A stretch of DNA of 64,000 nucleotides from an uncultured Trueperaceae bacterium (lineage in GTDB: Bacteria; Deinococcota; Deinococci; Deinococcales; Trueperaceae): assembly GCA_963799485.1 (NCBI GenBank), contig CAWCXJ010000013.1:192001-256000 (forward strand). The letters run 5' to 3'. Positions within the stretch are counted from its first letter, which is position 1. Every line of letters begins with the position of its first letter. The position numbers were made by a program. Shown here piece by piece: positions 1 through 3,000 of this stretch.

Positions 1-3000
1 AACGGCTAGCCCTTCCAGCTGCCGAAAAGAGTCACCGCCGGTCTTAACGAAGCCGGTACCCCGCAGCTTTCCCGCCCGAATCTGCGCGAACGTGCTCGAG
101 CCGACGCCTTCGGCGACCTGATAACCGCAGCTTACAAAACGCCGTAAATGCAGCTTCAGCAGCGGTAAACCCTGCCCTGGGTACGCGATGCTGTTAGCGA
201 AGATGCCGGCAGACAAGGCCAGCCCAAGCAGACCCCGTTACCCTGCGGCATCTGGCGCTAAGTCAACTCGAACCAGAAACGTCGCTTAAGGCCGGTGTCG
301 AAGCCGGGCGTATGAGAGCGGGCCGGGGACTGCTTACGCAAAGTTTAGGCGTAAGCCCTGGACGCGGGTGCTACACCCCAAACGCGTGTGAGTAAATTGC
401 GTATAGTAACACAAACGGTTACTGGAGGTAGAAAGGTGACGCAAGCGACCGAACTGGCTGGGCAAAAAGGTGAGAAGAAAATCGGGACGCTGCAAAAGGC
501 GCTCGAGGTCAATCTGGAGGCGAGTAAATACGGCACGTTCGCCGAAATCGGCGCAGGGCAAGAGGTCGTCAGGTGGTTTTTTCAAGCGGGCGCCGCCGCC
601 GCCACCATCGCCAAATCGATGTCGGCCTACGACATGACGGTCAGCGACGCGATTTACGGGCACGCCAAACGCTACGTCTCGAGAGACCGCCTGGAGACGA
701 TGCTCACTTACGAATACGACCTCTTGATCGAACGCCTGAGCGCGCAGCGGCCCGACACCGAGTTTTTCGTCTTTGCCAATACGGTCGTGGCGCGCGGCTT
801 CAAAGCGGGCGGCGAATATCACGGCTGGATGGGCATCTCGTACCAGTCGCAAGCGGGCGGCGAACCCAACCGCATCGTGATTCACGTGCGGATGCTCGAC
901 AAAGAAACCTTGGCGCAGCAAGAAGCGCTCGGTATCTTGGGCGTCAACCTCATCTACGGGGCGCTCAACTACCAAGACGACGATATCCCCGACGACCTGA
1001 TGCGGGGCCTTTTGGACGACCTCAGCACCGCCCGCGTCGAGGTCGATATGATCGCCTTTTCAGGGCCGCAGTTTAGCGGTACCGACCACCGCCTGATGGC
1101 GCTCAAACTCGTACAGCTAGGTCTTTCCGACGCCGCGATGTTTTCCGCGCAGGGCGAAGTCTTTCAGCCGTCCGAAGTCTTGTACAAAAAACCAATTGTA
1201 GTCGAGCGTGGTTCATTTAGACCCGTTACCTACGTCAACTTAGATATGCTCGCGTGCGCCCGTGGGCAGTTTGAACGGCAGCTCGAGGACGGCGACGGCG
1301 AGATCGTCGAAGTCATGGAAATTACCATGAAAAACCTTTTGGCAACCGGTGAAATCGACTACAACGACTTTTTGGCCCGCGCCGATATCTTGGCGGCAAC
1401 CGGCGCGACGGTTTTAATCTCCAACTACTTCGAATACCACCGCCTGGCAGCCTATTTACGGCGCTACACCAAAAAACCTATCGCCATTACGATGGGTATT
1501 CCCAGCTTGGAGGGGCTTTTTAACGAAGGTTTTTACGAAGACCTTGCAGGGGGCATCTTGGAGTCGTTCGGGCGGTTGTTCAAAAACGACACCCGTTTGT
1601 ACATCTACCCGCTGCAAGACAGCGAAACCGGTCGGCTCACCACTGTGCAAAAGCTCAAAGTCGCGCCGCACCTGCGTAACTTGTACGCGCACCTCGTTGA
1701 AAACGGCTATATCGAGTCGATCGACTTTTACGACAAGAACTTTCTGCATATCTTTTCACGCGACGTGCTCGACAAGATCGCCGCGCACGATCCGTCGTGG
1801 GAAGAGATGGTACCCGAGCAGGTTGCCGCGCTTATTAAAGAGCGTCGGTTTTTCGGTTATGAGCCCCACGCTGCTCCGCAAGCGACGCCAAACGCAGAAA
1901 CCGAGTCGGAGCCTGCTTAAGCTTCAGGAAATGCTTGGGCAAATGGTGGAAACCGAGCTCGAGCCGGGGCGCTGCTTTGCCCGGCGCAGAACACGCAGCA
2001 ATTGACAATGTGCGAAACTAGAGGGTATGAACCTCTCTAACGCGCAGCAAATTGACCTTACCGCGCTCTATTACGGCGCTTTTTTAGTCCATAGCCGCGG
2101 GGACGACGCTTGGTACCTCTACAGTGAAGGGGAGGCCGCCGATCAGGTCGAAGCGTCCGACGCCGAACACTACGTTGCTCACGGCTGGGTGCAGCGCCAG
2201 GGGTTTGAAAGTTCGGTCGATCTGGAGCTTTACGCCCTGACGAGCGCAGGTCAAGAGCTGCTCGAGCCCTACCTCGCGGCTGAAGGGGAGGAAACGGACG
2301 GTGAAGCGGGCGCGCGGCTCCTGCTCGCTGCTACCGCCGGAACGCGGGCGTACCTGCTCTCGGTTCCGGTTTCCCCTGAAGACGTCGAAACGCTCCGGCG
2401 GCGTTTTGTACTGGCCGAAACGCTTTCGGCTGCCGACGATGATTTTGTCGCGCTCGAGTACGGCGCGGACGTGTCGGCCTACGACCCCGAACAGAGCGGA
2501 GAAATTCAGGAGCTGCGCGCCGAGGCGCAGGGGGCGGCGCTGTTGGCGACCTTGCCCGACGACTTCGCCGCCGGCGCGGAACTTACGCTGAGCTGGGCGA
2601 GCGTGCTGGTCAGCGAATCGGGGTTTGCCTTCGCTGCGGGCACGGAGTCCGGGGAGAGGCTCGAGACCGACGAACTCACCGAAACCGAGCTGATGACCCT
2701 CGCCATGACGCTCCTCAGCGACGAGCCTTTGACGCAAGCCTAGCGGTGCAAAACGCTAGACTAGCCTTATGAGCGTGCGCCCTAGCGTGCGGGCAGCGCG
2801 GGCGTATCACTTTAGCGCCCGCCCCGCCCGCATCAAACTCGACCAGAACGAATCCCCTTACGACTTGCCCGCTGAACTCAAAGCCGAGGTCTGGGCAAAA
2901 CTTCAAACTCTTTCCTGGAACCGCTACTCCGAACTCGCCGCCGAGCCCTTGCGCGCCGCCATCGCCCGCTTTCACGACTGGGACGAAACCGGGGTCGTCG

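What a model noticed while it worked through the whole genome (the two positions that open the first line are those of the whole stretch)
436..1920. A very widespread, very conserved family without any Pfam/NCBIfam model, misnamed 'TonB-dependent receptor': predicted P [...]
g03419 (494 aa, soluble, no row in any table) belongs to a huge family of 465-520-aa proteins that are 65-70% identical between distant phyla yet match no Pfam, NCBIfam, Swiss-Prot or PDB sequence, and that public records name 'TonB-dependent receptor', 'nicotinate-nucleotide adenylyltransferase' or 'hypothetical'. A confident structure prediction shows two domains: residues ~14-184 have the fold of the NMN-deamidase domain of CinA/PncC and residues ~250-475 the fold of NaMN/NMN adenylyltransferases (NadD/NMNAT). 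The family is thus a fusion of two pyridine-nucleotide-cycle folds, but its HxGH nucleotidyl-transfer motif reads T-x-V-N (ERGSFRPVTyVN, invariant or nearly so), so it is not an ord [...]
Evidence so far: No hit in Pfam at E<=1 or NCBIfam below E 0.09; PDB sequences: nothing below E 0.049; no Swiss-Prot row. Homologue search: all 8,000 scored candidates significant; the best 120 are 417-564 aa, 65-90% identical over 84-100%, from Truepera, Herpetosiphonaceae, Armatimonadota, Abditibacteriota, Isosphaeraceae, Acidobacteriota, Verrucomicrobiota, Bacteroidota, with the names quoted. 42-sequence alignment: mean column identity 72%, 124 invariant columns. Genome collection: about 12,000 stored stretches estimated to hold the two signature peptides; 579 of 599 sampled confirmed. 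No conserved neighbour: in 53 loci of >=9 kb the most frequent flank family is in 8. ESM Atlas: nearest 30 clusters all w [...]
(Added by a program. Inside this text positions count along the whole contig: contig position 192,001 is position 1 of the stretch shown here. "Call 12" and the like, gene names such as g00115 and contig names such as C1 are that model's own, and its searches are not shown. The text may have been shortened before it was handed on; [...] marks where a part breaks off. The agent that wrote the report below was given it as the finding of a first reader that could run no searches.)

Follow-up and report, generated by a model that had tools for sequence, protein, structure and literature searches.

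The report
Unnamed PncC-like plus NadD-like fusion protein
This gene encodes a soluble protein from a large, unstudied bacterial family that joins diverged copies of two NAD-recycling enzyme folds but lacks the key catalytic residues of both, so public labels such as "TonB-dependent receptor" are wrong and its real job is still unknown.

Summary
Window 436..1920 (+) is a 494-aa soluble protein with a GGAGG ribosome site and no Pfam, NCBIfam or PDB-sequence match. It belongs to a very large family: 8000 of 8000 scored candidates were significant, and 3538 50%-identity representatives matched.

Predicted structure:
- Residues 14-184 have the CinA-C/PncC NMN-deamidase fold (Z 16.7).
- Residues 251-474 have the NadD fold (Z 16.6, rmsd 2.5 Å).
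- Residues 185-250 are a linker.

New here:
- The PncC Ser/Lys dyad is replaced by Ile38 and Ser70, while the phosphate-binding Tyr (Tyr65) is kept.
- The N-domain is the most conserved part, with about 20 invariant polar residues.
- In the NadD-like domain G-x-F-x-P-x-T is kept. The second His position varies across the family (N 31, H 25, others 21 of 77), and the Arg of SxTxxR is Leu.
- The genome has its own nadD and cinA.
- The gene is patchy (4 of 151 genomes in its phylum). Its tree mixes phyla, which suggests transfer.
- 160 loci show no conserved neighbour.

Best reading: a new nucleotide-metabolising enzyme centred on the remodelled PncC-like domain, probably acting on pyridine nucleotides (confidence 0.4). 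Main rival: a non-catalytic nucleotide sensor. The function is untested.

The parts
424..428 (+). Shine-Dalgarno-like GGAGG, 7 nt before the GTG start
   Evidence: Read directly from the sequence.
436..1920 (+). Gene for the 494-aa protein (P0001), stop codon included
   Evidence: ORF list and translation. Homologues align from about residue 10-14 to about 476.
475..987 (+). N-terminal PncC/CinA-C-like domain (residues 14-184), the most conserved part of the family
   Evidence: VIA: 6l19_A Z 16.7, 2a9s_B Z 16.2, 4ct8_A Z 14.6, HcgF 3wva_A Z 10.5. Foldseek: 2a9s_B E 7.1e-5. Mean top-residue frequency is 0.63, against 0.44 for the C-domain, in 77 diverse members.
544..561 (+). Motif E37-I38-G39-A40-G41-Q42, the counterpart of the PncC E-S-C-T-G-G motif; the nucleophile Ser position is Ile
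   Evidence: E37 is present in 77/77, I38 in 76/77, G39 in 77/77. The mapping rests on identical spacing (E +28 = Y, Y +5 = K) with the genome's own CinA and on the constant offset of 231 to TtCinA 4ct8_A, whose alignment starts 14<->245. AtCinA residue roles come from PMC5384747.
613..660 (+). Motif K60-S-M-S63-A-Y65-D66-M-T-V-S70-D71-A-I-Y74-G75; Tyr65 is the PncC phosphate-binding Tyr, and Ser70 sits at the catalytic Lys position
   Evidence: S63, A64, Y65, D66, S70, Y74 and G75 are each 77/77. K60 and D71 are each 74/77. Mapping as for the previous motif.
988..1185 (+). Linker (residues 185-250): an unstructured stretch to about residue 217, then helix-strand-helix leading into the NadD-like domain
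   Evidence: Secondary structure of the 185-480 model. NadD matches start at model residue 66-68 (protein residue 250-252). The longest, 9iw1_B, starts at model residue 44 (protein residue 228).
1186..1860 (+). C-terminal NadD/NMNAT-like domain (residues 251-475)
   Evidence: pLDDT 96.7 model. Matches: 2h29_A Z 16.6 rmsd 2.5 with 175/188 aligned, 1k4k_A Z 15.6, PPAT 4nah_A Z 11.2, archaeal NMNAT 1f9a_A Z 9.3. Foldseek: 9iw1_A E 1.3e-7.
1207..1239 (+). R258-G-S-F-R-P-V-T265-Y-V-N268, the counterpart of the G-x-F-D-P-x-H-x-G-H nucleotidyl-transfer motif
   Evidence: hmmsearch alignment to PPAT GSFDPITYGH. hhalign to own-phylum NadD GRFDPVHIGHL. Frequencies: R258 73/77, G259 73/77, F261 71/77, P263 77/77, T265 68/77; position 268 is N 31, H 25, T 7, S 5, others 9.
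1750..1770 (+). I439-F-S441-R-D-V-L445, the counterpart of the NadD I-S-S-T-x-x-R motif; the Arg position is Leu
   Evidence: hhalign to NadD VSSTEVR, E 0.0027. hmmsearch to PPAT ISSSIVK. S441 is S in 51/77; position 445 is L 44, R 8, I 5.

Best explanation
[quoted passage not shown] These are a PncC-type NMN deamidase domain (N-terminal) and a NadD-type NaMN adenylyltransferase domain (C-terminal). It no longer performs either canonical reaction.

I think it is most likely a new enzyme of nucleotide metabolism, probably pyridine-nucleotide metabolism. On this reading the active centre lies in the remodelled PncC-like domain. That pocket would still clamp a 5'-phosphate with Tyr65 and the glycine-rich loops. 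It would use a new, invariant polar set in place of the Ser/Lys dyad: Glu37, Gln42, Glu43, Lys60, Ser63, Asp66, Ser70, Asp71, Tyr74, Arg79, Arg85, Glu93, His150 and Gln161. The NadD-like domain keeps its phosphate/ribose loop (R-G-x-F-x-P-x-T), so it probably holds an adenine nucleotide or the adenylyl half of a dinucleotide as co-substrate, product or allosteric ligand.

Shown: the folds, the motif homology, the residue replacements, the conservation pattern and the genomic independence. Inferred: the ligand class and the claim that it is catalytic. Unknown: the reaction.
For: Folds: PncC-like Z 16.7 and NadD-like Z 16.6.

Motif-level homology to nucleotidyltransferases: (E 8.4e-4).

Dyad replaced, phosphate Tyr kept: I38 76/77, S70 77/77, Y65 77/77. 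Residue roles come from PMC5384747 and PMC4246079 (passages).

Conservation is concentrated in the N-domain. Mean top-residue frequency is 0.63 against 0.44 for the C-domain, and 20 of the 21 columns invariant across 77 members (32-83% identical to the window protein) lie in residues 21-169. A dense invariant polar constellation is more typical of a catalytic site than of a binding site.

The HxGH-equivalent fourth position still carries an H-bonding residue (N, H, T or S) in 68 of 77. G-x-F-x-P is nearly invariant. This fits retained phosphate binding.

The genome has a separate canonical nadD (GGRFDPVHIGH, SSTEVR) and a cinA next to recA, so this gene is not the housekeeping copy.

There is no conserved neighbour in 160 loci and the gene is single-copy. 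This fits a stand-alone enzyme acting on a common metabolite better than a partner-dependent regulator.
Against: There is no experiment and no ligand evidence. I could not inspect coordinates, so the pocket geometry was not checked.

Profile-profile comparison of the N-domain with 17 CinA C-domains was not significant (probability 0.07). The residue mapping there rests on motif spacing and on the ranges of the fold alignment.

The catalytic residues of both parent enzymes are lost, which is also what a pseudoenzyme looks like.

One member is fused to an Hpt phosphotransfer domain (P0123), which hints at signalling.

No NAD-pathway gene recurs next to it, and no NAD riboswitch or other Rfam RNA was found in 11 loci. 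The link to NAD rests on ancestry of the folds only.
Confidence: 0.4

Rival explanations
1. It is a non-catalytic pseudoenzyme. Both domains only bind pyridine or adenine nucleotides (for example NMN/NaMN in the N-domain and NAD/NaAD/ATP in the C-domain). The protein then reports NAD-pool status to some partner by protein-protein contact.
For: The canonical catalytic residues of both parent enzymes are replaced, while the phosphate-binding elements are kept: Y65 and G-x-F-x-P. The fourth HxGH position drifts widely, including V, D, A, G and I in 7 of 77. One member carries a C-terminal Hpt domain (E 1.2e-7). Inactive CinA-domain paralogues are already known in E. coli: YfaY is stated to show no NMN deamidase activity (PMC3855486, passages). 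YdeJ's inactivity is implied there and otherwise recalled. Reuse of NAD-enzyme folds as sensors in NrtR and NadR is recalled, not checked here.
Against: There is no output domain in the window protein, and 25 of 27 diverse members scanned have no Pfam domain at all. No conserved partner gene appears in 160 loci. About 20 invariant polar residues in one domain is more than ligand binding usually needs.
Confidence: 0.27
2. It is a working bifunctional NMN deamidase / NaMN (or NMN) adenylyltransferase that uses variant catalytic residues. This would be a metabolic fusion of two consecutive steps.
For: The domain order matches the pathway order NMN -> NaMN -> NaAD. The pathway is described in PMC3855486. 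Thr at the first His position is normal in PPAT. T-x-G-N replaces HIGH in active TrpRS (PMC10201369). 25 of 77 diverse members keep His at the fourth position. Some public records name it NaMN/NMN adenylyltransferase.
Against: The PncC nucleophile Ser is Ile in 76/77 and the base Lys is Ser in 77/77. S31A and K63A abolish AtCinA activity (PMC5384747). The Arg of SxTxxR is Leu in 44/77 and Arg in only 8/77. Pfam PF01467 and PF02464 do not match at E<=10. The genome already has canonical nadD and cinA.
Confidence: 0.07
3. It is a TonB-dependent outer-membrane receptor, as many public records say.
For: Only the names attached by sources.
Against: No Plug or TonB_dep_Rec Pfam match at E<=10. No signal peptide or hydrophobic segment: the maximum 19-residue hydropathy is 1.27. 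The predicted fold is two alpha/beta domains matching cytosolic enzymes.
Confidence: 0.01
4. It has some other role unrelated to nucleotides, for example a structural protein, a chaperone-like protein, or a protein that binds a conserved macromolecule. The enzyme folds would then serve only as scaffolds.
For: Identity within the nearest subfamily is very high: 154 invariant columns in 40 sequences. Such constraint is often seen in proteins with many interaction surfaces. NMNAT appears as a 'specific chaperone' in the title of a top structural hit (5z9r).
Against: The conserved residues are polar and cluster on motifs that line the ligand pocket in PncC. The phosphate-loop motif of the C-domain is retained.
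Confidence: 0.1

Closest known systems
PncC / CinA C-terminal domain (NMN deamidase, Pfam PF02464; structures 2A9S, 6L19, 4CT8)
   Same: Same fold over residues 14-184 (Z 14.6-16.7, rmsd 2.6-2.9 Å, 144-152 residues aligned). The Glu of the E-S-C-T-G-G motif and the phosphate-binding Tyr are kept at identical spacing.
   Different: Identity is 10-15% and PF02464 does not match. The nucleophile Ser is Ile38 and the base Lys is Ser70. The domain is fused to a NadD-like domain rather than to the COG1058/MocF domain. It has many extra invariant polar residues that PncC lacks.
NadD / NMNAT (NaMN/NMN adenylyltransferase; TIGR00482, PF01467; structures 2H29, 1K4K, 1YUL, 5Z9R)
   Same: Same fold, including the C-terminal helical part, over residues 251-474 (Z 15.6-16.6). 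The G-x-F-x-P loop and the Ser of the ISST motif align.
   Different: Identity is 12-15% and neither family model matches. H-x-G-H reads T-Y-V-N. The Arg of SxTxxR is Leu. Two extra arginines flank the loop (R258, R262). The housekeeping nadD is elsewhere in the genome.
PPAT / CoaD (phosphopantetheine adenylyltransferase)
   Same: This is the best sequence-level match of the family profile in the PDB (3f3m_A, E 8.4e-4). PPAT's own motif begins with Thr (GSFDPITYGH), as here, and its C-terminal ISSS motif aligns. Fold match Z 11.2.
   Different: PPAT keeps the catalytic His at the fourth position. It is a 160-aa single-domain protein. The fold match is weaker than to NadD.
HcgF (FeGP-cofactor biosynthesis, 3WVA)
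   Same: It is another PncC-fold protein that is not an NMN deamidase (Z 10.5, 128 residues aligned). This shows that the fold has been reused.
   Different: Archaeal, single-domain, much weaker match. Its chemistry (binding a guanylylpyridinol through a Cys) is recalled, not checked here.
Inactive CinA-domain paralogues (E. coli YfaY, YdeJ)
   Same: They are a precedent for CinA/PncC-type domains without NMN deamidase activity (PMC3855486, passages).
   Different: Those proteins still match PF02464 and are not fused to a NadD-like domain. No relationship to this family was tested.

Membership tests
PncC / CinA-C NMN deamidase (PF02464) | Match to the family's profile HMM above its cut-off | tested here: not met
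   Pfam scan of P0001 found 0 families at E<=10. None of 27 diverse members matched PF02464 at E<=0.01. hhalign of the N-domain profile against 17 CinA C-domains gave probability 0.07.
PncC / CinA-C NMN deamidase (PF02464) | CinA-C three-layer alpha/beta fold | tested here: met
   6l19_A Z 16.7 rmsd 2.7 with 152 aligned; 2a9s_B Z 16.2; 6mr3_A Z 15.0; 4ct8_A Z 14.6. Foldseek E 7.1e-5.
PncC / CinA-C NMN deamidase (PF02464) | Catalytic Ser of the E-S-C-T-G-G motif (AtCinA S31) | tested here: not met
   The aligned position is Ile38, present in 76/77. The mapping rests on spacing and on the start offset of the fold alignment. S31A is inactive (PMC5384747).
PncC / CinA-C NMN deamidase (PF02464) | Catalytic Lys five residues after the conserved Tyr (AtCinA K63 / TtCinA K301) | tested here: not met
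   The position is Ser70, present in 77/77. K63A is inactive.
PncC / CinA-C NMN deamidase (PF02464) | Phosphate-binding Tyr (AtCinA Y58 / TtCinA Y296) | tested here: met
   Tyr65 is present in 77/77, 28 residues after the motif Glu, as in the genome's own CinA.
PncC / CinA-C NMN deamidase (PF02464) | Phosphate salt-bridge Arg (AtCinA R145 / TtCinA R377) | tested here: inconclusive
   Indels between residues 70 and 175 prevent a safe mapping without coordinates. The candidates (R152 in 47/77, K156 in 16/77) are not invariant.
NadD / NMNAT nucleotidyltransferase (TIGR00482, PF01467) | Match to the family's profile HMM above its cut-off | tested here: not met
   PF01467 is absent at E<=10. The best NCBIfam hits are archaeal NMNAT models at 13 and 11.4 bits against cut-offs of 127 and 181.
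NadD / NMNAT nucleotidyltransferase (TIGR00482, PF01467) | NadD-type Rossmann-like fold with C-terminal helical subdomain | tested here: met
   2h29_A Z 16.6 rmsd 2.5 with 175 of 188 aligned. Nine NadD/NMNAT entries score Z 13.9-16.6, above PPAT at 11.2.
NadD / NMNAT nucleotidyltransferase (TIGR00482, PF01467) | (H/T)-x-G-H nucleotidyl-transfer motif after G-x-F-x-P | tested here: not met
   The window protein reads G259-S-F-R-P-V-T265-Y-V267-N268. Across the family the fourth position is N 31, H 25, T 7, S 5, others 9 of 77.
NadD / NMNAT nucleotidyltransferase (TIGR00482, PF01467) | I-S-S-T-x-x-R ATP-phosphate motif | tested here: not met
   It aligns to I439-F-S441-R-D-V-L445. Ser is kept in 51/77. 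The Arg position is L 44, R 8, I 5.
TonB-dependent receptor | Signal peptide, Plug domain and 22-strand beta-barrel | tested here: not met
   No Pfam match at all. Hydrophilic N-terminus and maximum hydropathy 1.27. The predicted structure is two alpha/beta domains.
Known anti-phage defence or phage/plasmid gene families | Match to PADLOC or PHROG models, or carriage on plasmids | tested here: not met
   PADLOC gave 0 families at E<=1 for 4 members. PHROGs gave only E 0.056-0.15. tblastn against 72,556 plasmids found no match.

The most novel reading that the evidence does not exclude
The family is an unrecognised node of bacterial NAD homeostasis. It began as an ancient PncC-NadD fusion, and its deamidase pocket was rebuilt around acidic, Ser and Lys residues (E37, E43, K60, S63, D66, S70, D71). 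It now carries out a different reaction on NMN/NaMN or a related pyridine nucleotide, for example cleavage or transfer at the ribosyl or phosphate group. The NadD-like domain supplies or senses the adenylate. This enzyme would be present in thousands of environmental bacterial species and missing from every pathway map.
Probability: 0.3. Interest if true: 0.8.

Novelty: new variant of a known kind. Interest (0 to 1): 0.62.

Why it matters
This is a large protein family: 3538 clusters at 50% identity, about 580 of 600 sampled stretches confirmed in each of two collections, and members from at least a dozen phyla. It has no family model in Pfam or NCBIfam, and public records carry a plainly wrong name that keeps propagating.

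Both halves descend from enzymes of the NAD recycling pathway, yet neither keeps the parent's catalytic residues. A new, strictly conserved polar site has appeared in the PncC-like half. Working out its ligand and reaction could add a step or a regulator to bacterial NAD metabolism. That pathway is considered well mapped and is currently of interest because of NAD-depleting immune systems.

At the very least, the result justifies a new family model and correction of the annotation.

Tried and rejected
- **Homodimer through the PncC-like domain.** I ran a complex prediction of residues 14-190 in two copies. It gave no verdict (score 0.01, mark 0.42), so it is no evidence either way.
- **Expression.** No RNA holder was listed among public runs.
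- **Regulatory RNA upstream.** Rfam at gathering thresholds found 0 matches on 11 loci, including the window's own locus. The promoter and terminator scan was not above shuffles.
- **Conserved neighbourhood.**
  - In 80 genome loci (747 ORFs), the top non-self cluster was an antisense shadow of the gene itself. After that came an aminotransferase in 6 loci and an ABC ATPase in 5.
  - In 160 loci (1265 ORFs; 84 loci of 9 kb or more; the family ORF recognised in 133), a divergent SppA peptidase appears in 12 loci, apparently from one lineage. A secreted BCP-type peroxiredoxin lies just downstream in 6 loci from two lineages.
  - A Pfam scan of the 119 directly adjacent ORFs from 66 loci found no recurrent NAD-pathway family. 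AhpC-TSA and Response_reg each occurred 4 times.
  - I rejected all of these as functional links.
- **Fusions.** Only one longer form was found (P0272, 1043 aa, with beta-lactamase and DUF3471), plus one Hpt fusion. Short hits are mostly contig-end fragments.
- **Defence, phage or plasmid origin.** Nothing was found.
- **A Ser70-His129 catalytic triad.** I dropped this idea because secondary-structure order places His129 in strand 4, not at the PncC Thr105 position, and it is His in only 60/77.
- **Profile-profile alignment with single sequences.** Uninformative.
- **Literature.** Four of the six full-text searches aimed at the family found no paper describing it or a PncC-NadD-type fusion. 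The library lacks most subscription journals.
- **Earlier findings of this scan.** Nothing was returned.
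Full report
**The gene**

The frame is open from 388 to 1920 on the + strand. The GTG at 436 lies 7 nt after a GGAGG at 424-428, and homologues begin to align around residue 10-14. The protein is acidic (70 D+E against 48 K+R). Its N-terminus is hydrophilic and no 19-residue window exceeds a hydropathy of 1.27, so there is no signal peptide or membrane segment. It is single-copy in a 3.66-Mb genome that is 99.99% complete.

**No family model, very large family**

- Pfam gives nothing at E<=10.
- NCBIfam gives only two archaeal NMNAT models at 13 and 11.4 bits, against cut-offs of 127 and 181.
- PDB sequences give nothing better than E 0.62.
- All 8000 scored candidates in the 5.8-billion-protein collection were significant. 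The best 120 are 417-564 aa and 65-90% identical, and are named 'TonB-dependent receptor', 'nicotinate-nucleotide/NMN adenylyltransferase' or 'hypothetical'. A cluster look-up added 'uncharacterized protein YqgQ'.
- The exhaustive search of 50%-identity representatives found 3538 at E<=1e-3 and 627 at E<=1e-30.
- Of 27 diverse members scanned against Pfam, 25 had no hit. One had a C-terminal Hpt domain, and one had a sub-threshold EF-hand.
- None of the 30 nearest ESM-Atlas clusters has a common Pfam family.
- In the species-genome collection 579 of 599 sampled stretches were confirmed. In metagenomes 580 of 601 were confirmed.

**Structure**

With a 40-sequence alignment (A1), the full-length model had pLDDT 78.5 and pTM 0.77.

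- Foldseek found 17 PDB matches at E<=0.001, all either CinA-superfamily or NMNAT/NadD chains.
- The Foldseek-independent search of 48,161 chains put four CinA-C/PncC entries on top for residues 14-184. These were 6l19_A (Z 16.7, rmsd 2.7, 152 aligned), 2a9s_B (16.2), 6mr3_A (15.0) and 4ct8_A (14.6). NadD/NMNAT entries followed for residues 250-475 (Z up to 11.7), and HcgF scored Z 10.5.
- I re-predicted residues 185-480 with a 77-sequence diverse alignment. This gave pLDDT 96.7 and pTM 0.92.
- The re-predicted model raised the NadD match to Z 16.6 (2h29_A, rmsd 2.5 Å, 175 of 188 residues). Nine NadD/NMNAT entries score 13.9-16.6, clearly above PPAT (11.2), NadM/archaeal NMNAT (9.3-9.5) and ATP sulfurylase (8.6). 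Foldseek agrees (9iw1_A, E 1.3e-7).
- Residues 185 to about 217 have no regular structure in that model. A helix-strand-helix at 218-249 leads into the first Rossmann strand.

**Sequence-level homology and catalytic residues: the NadD-like domain**

A profile of 77 diverse members (A2, 32-83% identical to the window protein) reaches PPAT chains in the PDB (3f3m_A, E 8.4e-4). It aligns 'RGSFRPVTkvnLDm' with 'GSFDPITYGHLDI', and the C-terminal 'I-x-S-x-x-V...W..VP..V' with PPAT's 'ISSSIVKEV...FVPPYV'.

hhalign against 11 NadD proteins taken from genomes of the same phylum gives the same two anchors. These are GSFRPVTYVNL<->GRFDPVHIGHL (E 0.056) and IFSRDVL<->VSSTEVR (E 0.0027). Both are weak, but they are mutually consistent and agree with the fold match.

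The resulting mapping is:
- The first His is Thr265, present in 68/77. This is the normal state in PPAT.
- The Gly is Val267.
- The second His is Asn268.
- The Arg of SxTxxR is Leu445 (L 44, R 8 of 77).
- G259 (73/77), F261 (71/77) and P263 (77/77) are kept.

In the broad family the second-His position is N 31, H 25, T 7, S 5, V 2, D 2, and one each of A, G, I, K and Q. T-x-V-N is near-invariant only in the close subfamily. Loss of His alone is not proof of inactivity, because TrpRS uses TIGN for HIGH (PMC10201369, passage read). The drift at that position together with the lost Arg does argue against canonical adenylyl transfer.

**Sequence-level homology and catalytic residues: the PncC-like domain**

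According to passages of PMC5384747 and PMC4246079:
- AtCinA S31 and K63 are the catalytic dyad. S31A and K63A are inactive.
- Y58 (TtCinA Y296) binds the phosphate.
- Backbone amides next to S31 and T105 form the oxyanion hole.

The genome's own CinA reads ...TMESLTGG...(28 residues from E)...Y....K. The window protein reads FAEIGAGQ...(28 residues)...Y65....S70, with the same spacing. The fold alignment to TtCinA starts 14<->245. That offset of 231 maps S269/Y296/K301 onto I38/Y65/S70.

So the Glu and the phosphate Tyr are kept (both 77/77), while the nucleophile is Ile (76/77) and the base is Ser (77/77). This mapping is an inference. Profile-profile alignment of the two domain families was not significant, and I could not read the model coordinates.

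**Where the constraint lies**

Mean top-residue frequency in A2 is 0.63 for residues 14-184, 0.50 for the linker and 0.44 for residues 251-475. Of the 21 columns invariant in all 77 sequences, 20 lie in residues 21-169: K21, N26, G33, E37, G39, F49, T57, S63, A64, Y65, D66, S70, Y74, G75, V81, R85, E93, F111, G133 and G169. The twenty-first is P263. Q42, E43, K60, D71, R79, W131, Q137, H150, Q161 and N171 are conserved at 90% or more. The PncC-like domain is therefore the functional core, with a polar constellation different from PncC's.

**Genomic setting**

- The genome encodes a canonical NadD (195 aa, GGRFDPVHIGH ... SSTEVR), plus CoaD- and RibF-sized CTP_transf_like proteins, and a full-length CinA next to recA. 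This gene is therefore not the housekeeping enzyme.
- Downstream lie a 238-aa acidic ORF without a Pfam match, then hisC, hisB and hisH. Upstream there is a gap of about 900 bp to a divergent epimerase gene.
- Across 160 related loci there is no conserved neighbour. The recurrent neighbours are lineage-specific synteny, namely SppA in 12 loci and a secreted BCP-type peroxiredoxin in 6 loci from two lineages.
- Rfam found nothing in 11 loci.
- There are no PADLOC, PHROG or plasmid links.

**Distribution and evolution**

Named hits come from the following phyla and lineages:
- Armatimonadota, Abditibacteriota, Planctomycetota, Verrucomicrobiota
- Acidobacteriota, Myxococcota, Actinomycetota, Bacteroidota
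- Fibrobacterota, Nitrospirota, Gammaproteobacteria, Sericytochromatia
- Trueperaceae (phylum Deinococcota)

In the window's own phylum only 4 of 151 sampled genomes carry it (2 of 22 genera). There were 0 of 82 and 0 of 48 in the two large families.

I built a quick ML tree of 55 rows. These were 54 of the 66 family ORFs from the 80 genome loci, keeping those of 440-620 aa, plus the window protein. Twelve partial or over-long ORFs were dropped. In this tree the window protein sits with Armatimonadota and Trueperaceae. Verrucomicrobiota need at least 8 label changes and Planctomycetota at least 4. Actinomycetota nest inside a Chthoniobacteraceae clade with 96-100% support. The high cross-phylum identity therefore reflects horizontal spread together with strong constraint, not universal vertical inheritance.

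**Interpretation**

- Secure: this is a real, widespread, unmodelled family. It is built from a PncC-like and a NadD-like domain, it lacks the canonical catalytic residues of both, and it is misnamed in public records.
- Inferred: it binds phosphorylated nucleotides, probably pyridine nucleotides. The basis is the retained Tyr65, the glycine loops and the G-x-F-x-P-x-T motif.
- Unknown: whether it is an enzyme with new chemistry or a pseudoenzyme sensor.

I favour the enzyme reading (0.40). The reasons are the dense invariant polar site, the lack of any output domain and the lack of any partner gene. The sensor reading stands at 0.27. No paper describing the family was found in the four full-text searches aimed at it, out of six run in all. 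The library omits most subscription journals, and no supplements were consulted.

Noticed in passing
window 1-435 and L001 594-1500: There is a gap of about 900 bp between the divergent epimerase gene and the start of this gene. It holds no convincing ORF (only short, Arg-rich frames), no Rfam match and no consensus promoter. That is unusually long for a 3.7-Mb genome.
   Followed up: partly
window 2027-2743 (+): A 238-aa, very acidic ORF lies 107 nt downstream of the gene on the same strand. It has no Pfam match. It is not a recurrent neighbour in the 160 related loci.
   Followed up: partly
window 2769-5042 (+): A histidine-biosynthesis run follows: a hisC-like aminotransferase (PF00155) and hisB (IGPD). 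The next ORF is probably hisH, judged by its position, but I did not scan it against Pfam.
   Followed up: partly
window 5677-8877 (-): A minus-strand cluster holds a BadF/BadG-type ATPase, a family-4 glycoside hydrolase and a MOSC-domain protein.
   Followed up: no
finding note: The finding says contig position 160001 is window position 1. The genome search places the window at contig C13:192001-256000 of the held assembly. The two contig coordinate systems differ by 32 kb.
   Followed up: no
P0123 (616 aa) and P0272 (1043 aa): These are single fused forms of the family. One has a C-terminal Hpt phosphotransfer domain (E 1.2e-7). The other carries beta-lactamase and DUF3471 domains. Each was seen only once.
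   Followed up: partly
L024, L057, L044, L186, L191, L192: A BCP-type peroxiredoxin of about 200 aa, with a signal or lipoprotein-like N-terminus, lies 9-222 nt downstream on the same strand. This occurs in 6 of 160 loci, from two lineages (Chthoniobacteraceae-like and Polyangiaceae-like).
   Followed up: partly
genomes of family f2 (genus g10): All 17 sampled genomes of the largest family in the phylum match the NadD model TIGR00482 only weakly (E about 1e-5 to 1e-8, model positions 1-70, below the cut-off). The 11 genomes over the cut-off were the window's own genome, 9 of the 12 genomes of family f3 and the one genome of family f4; the three f3 genomes of genus g12 also fell below it. Genomes of f2 and g12 may therefore use a divergent or different NaMN/NMN adenylyltransferase.
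   Followed up: no
antisense of the gene in related loci (e.g. L032 5959-7503 -): Long antisense 'shadow' ORFs of 490-1130 aa overlap the gene in 25 of 160 loci from high-GC genomes. These are artefacts that could be miscalled as genes.
   Followed up: partly
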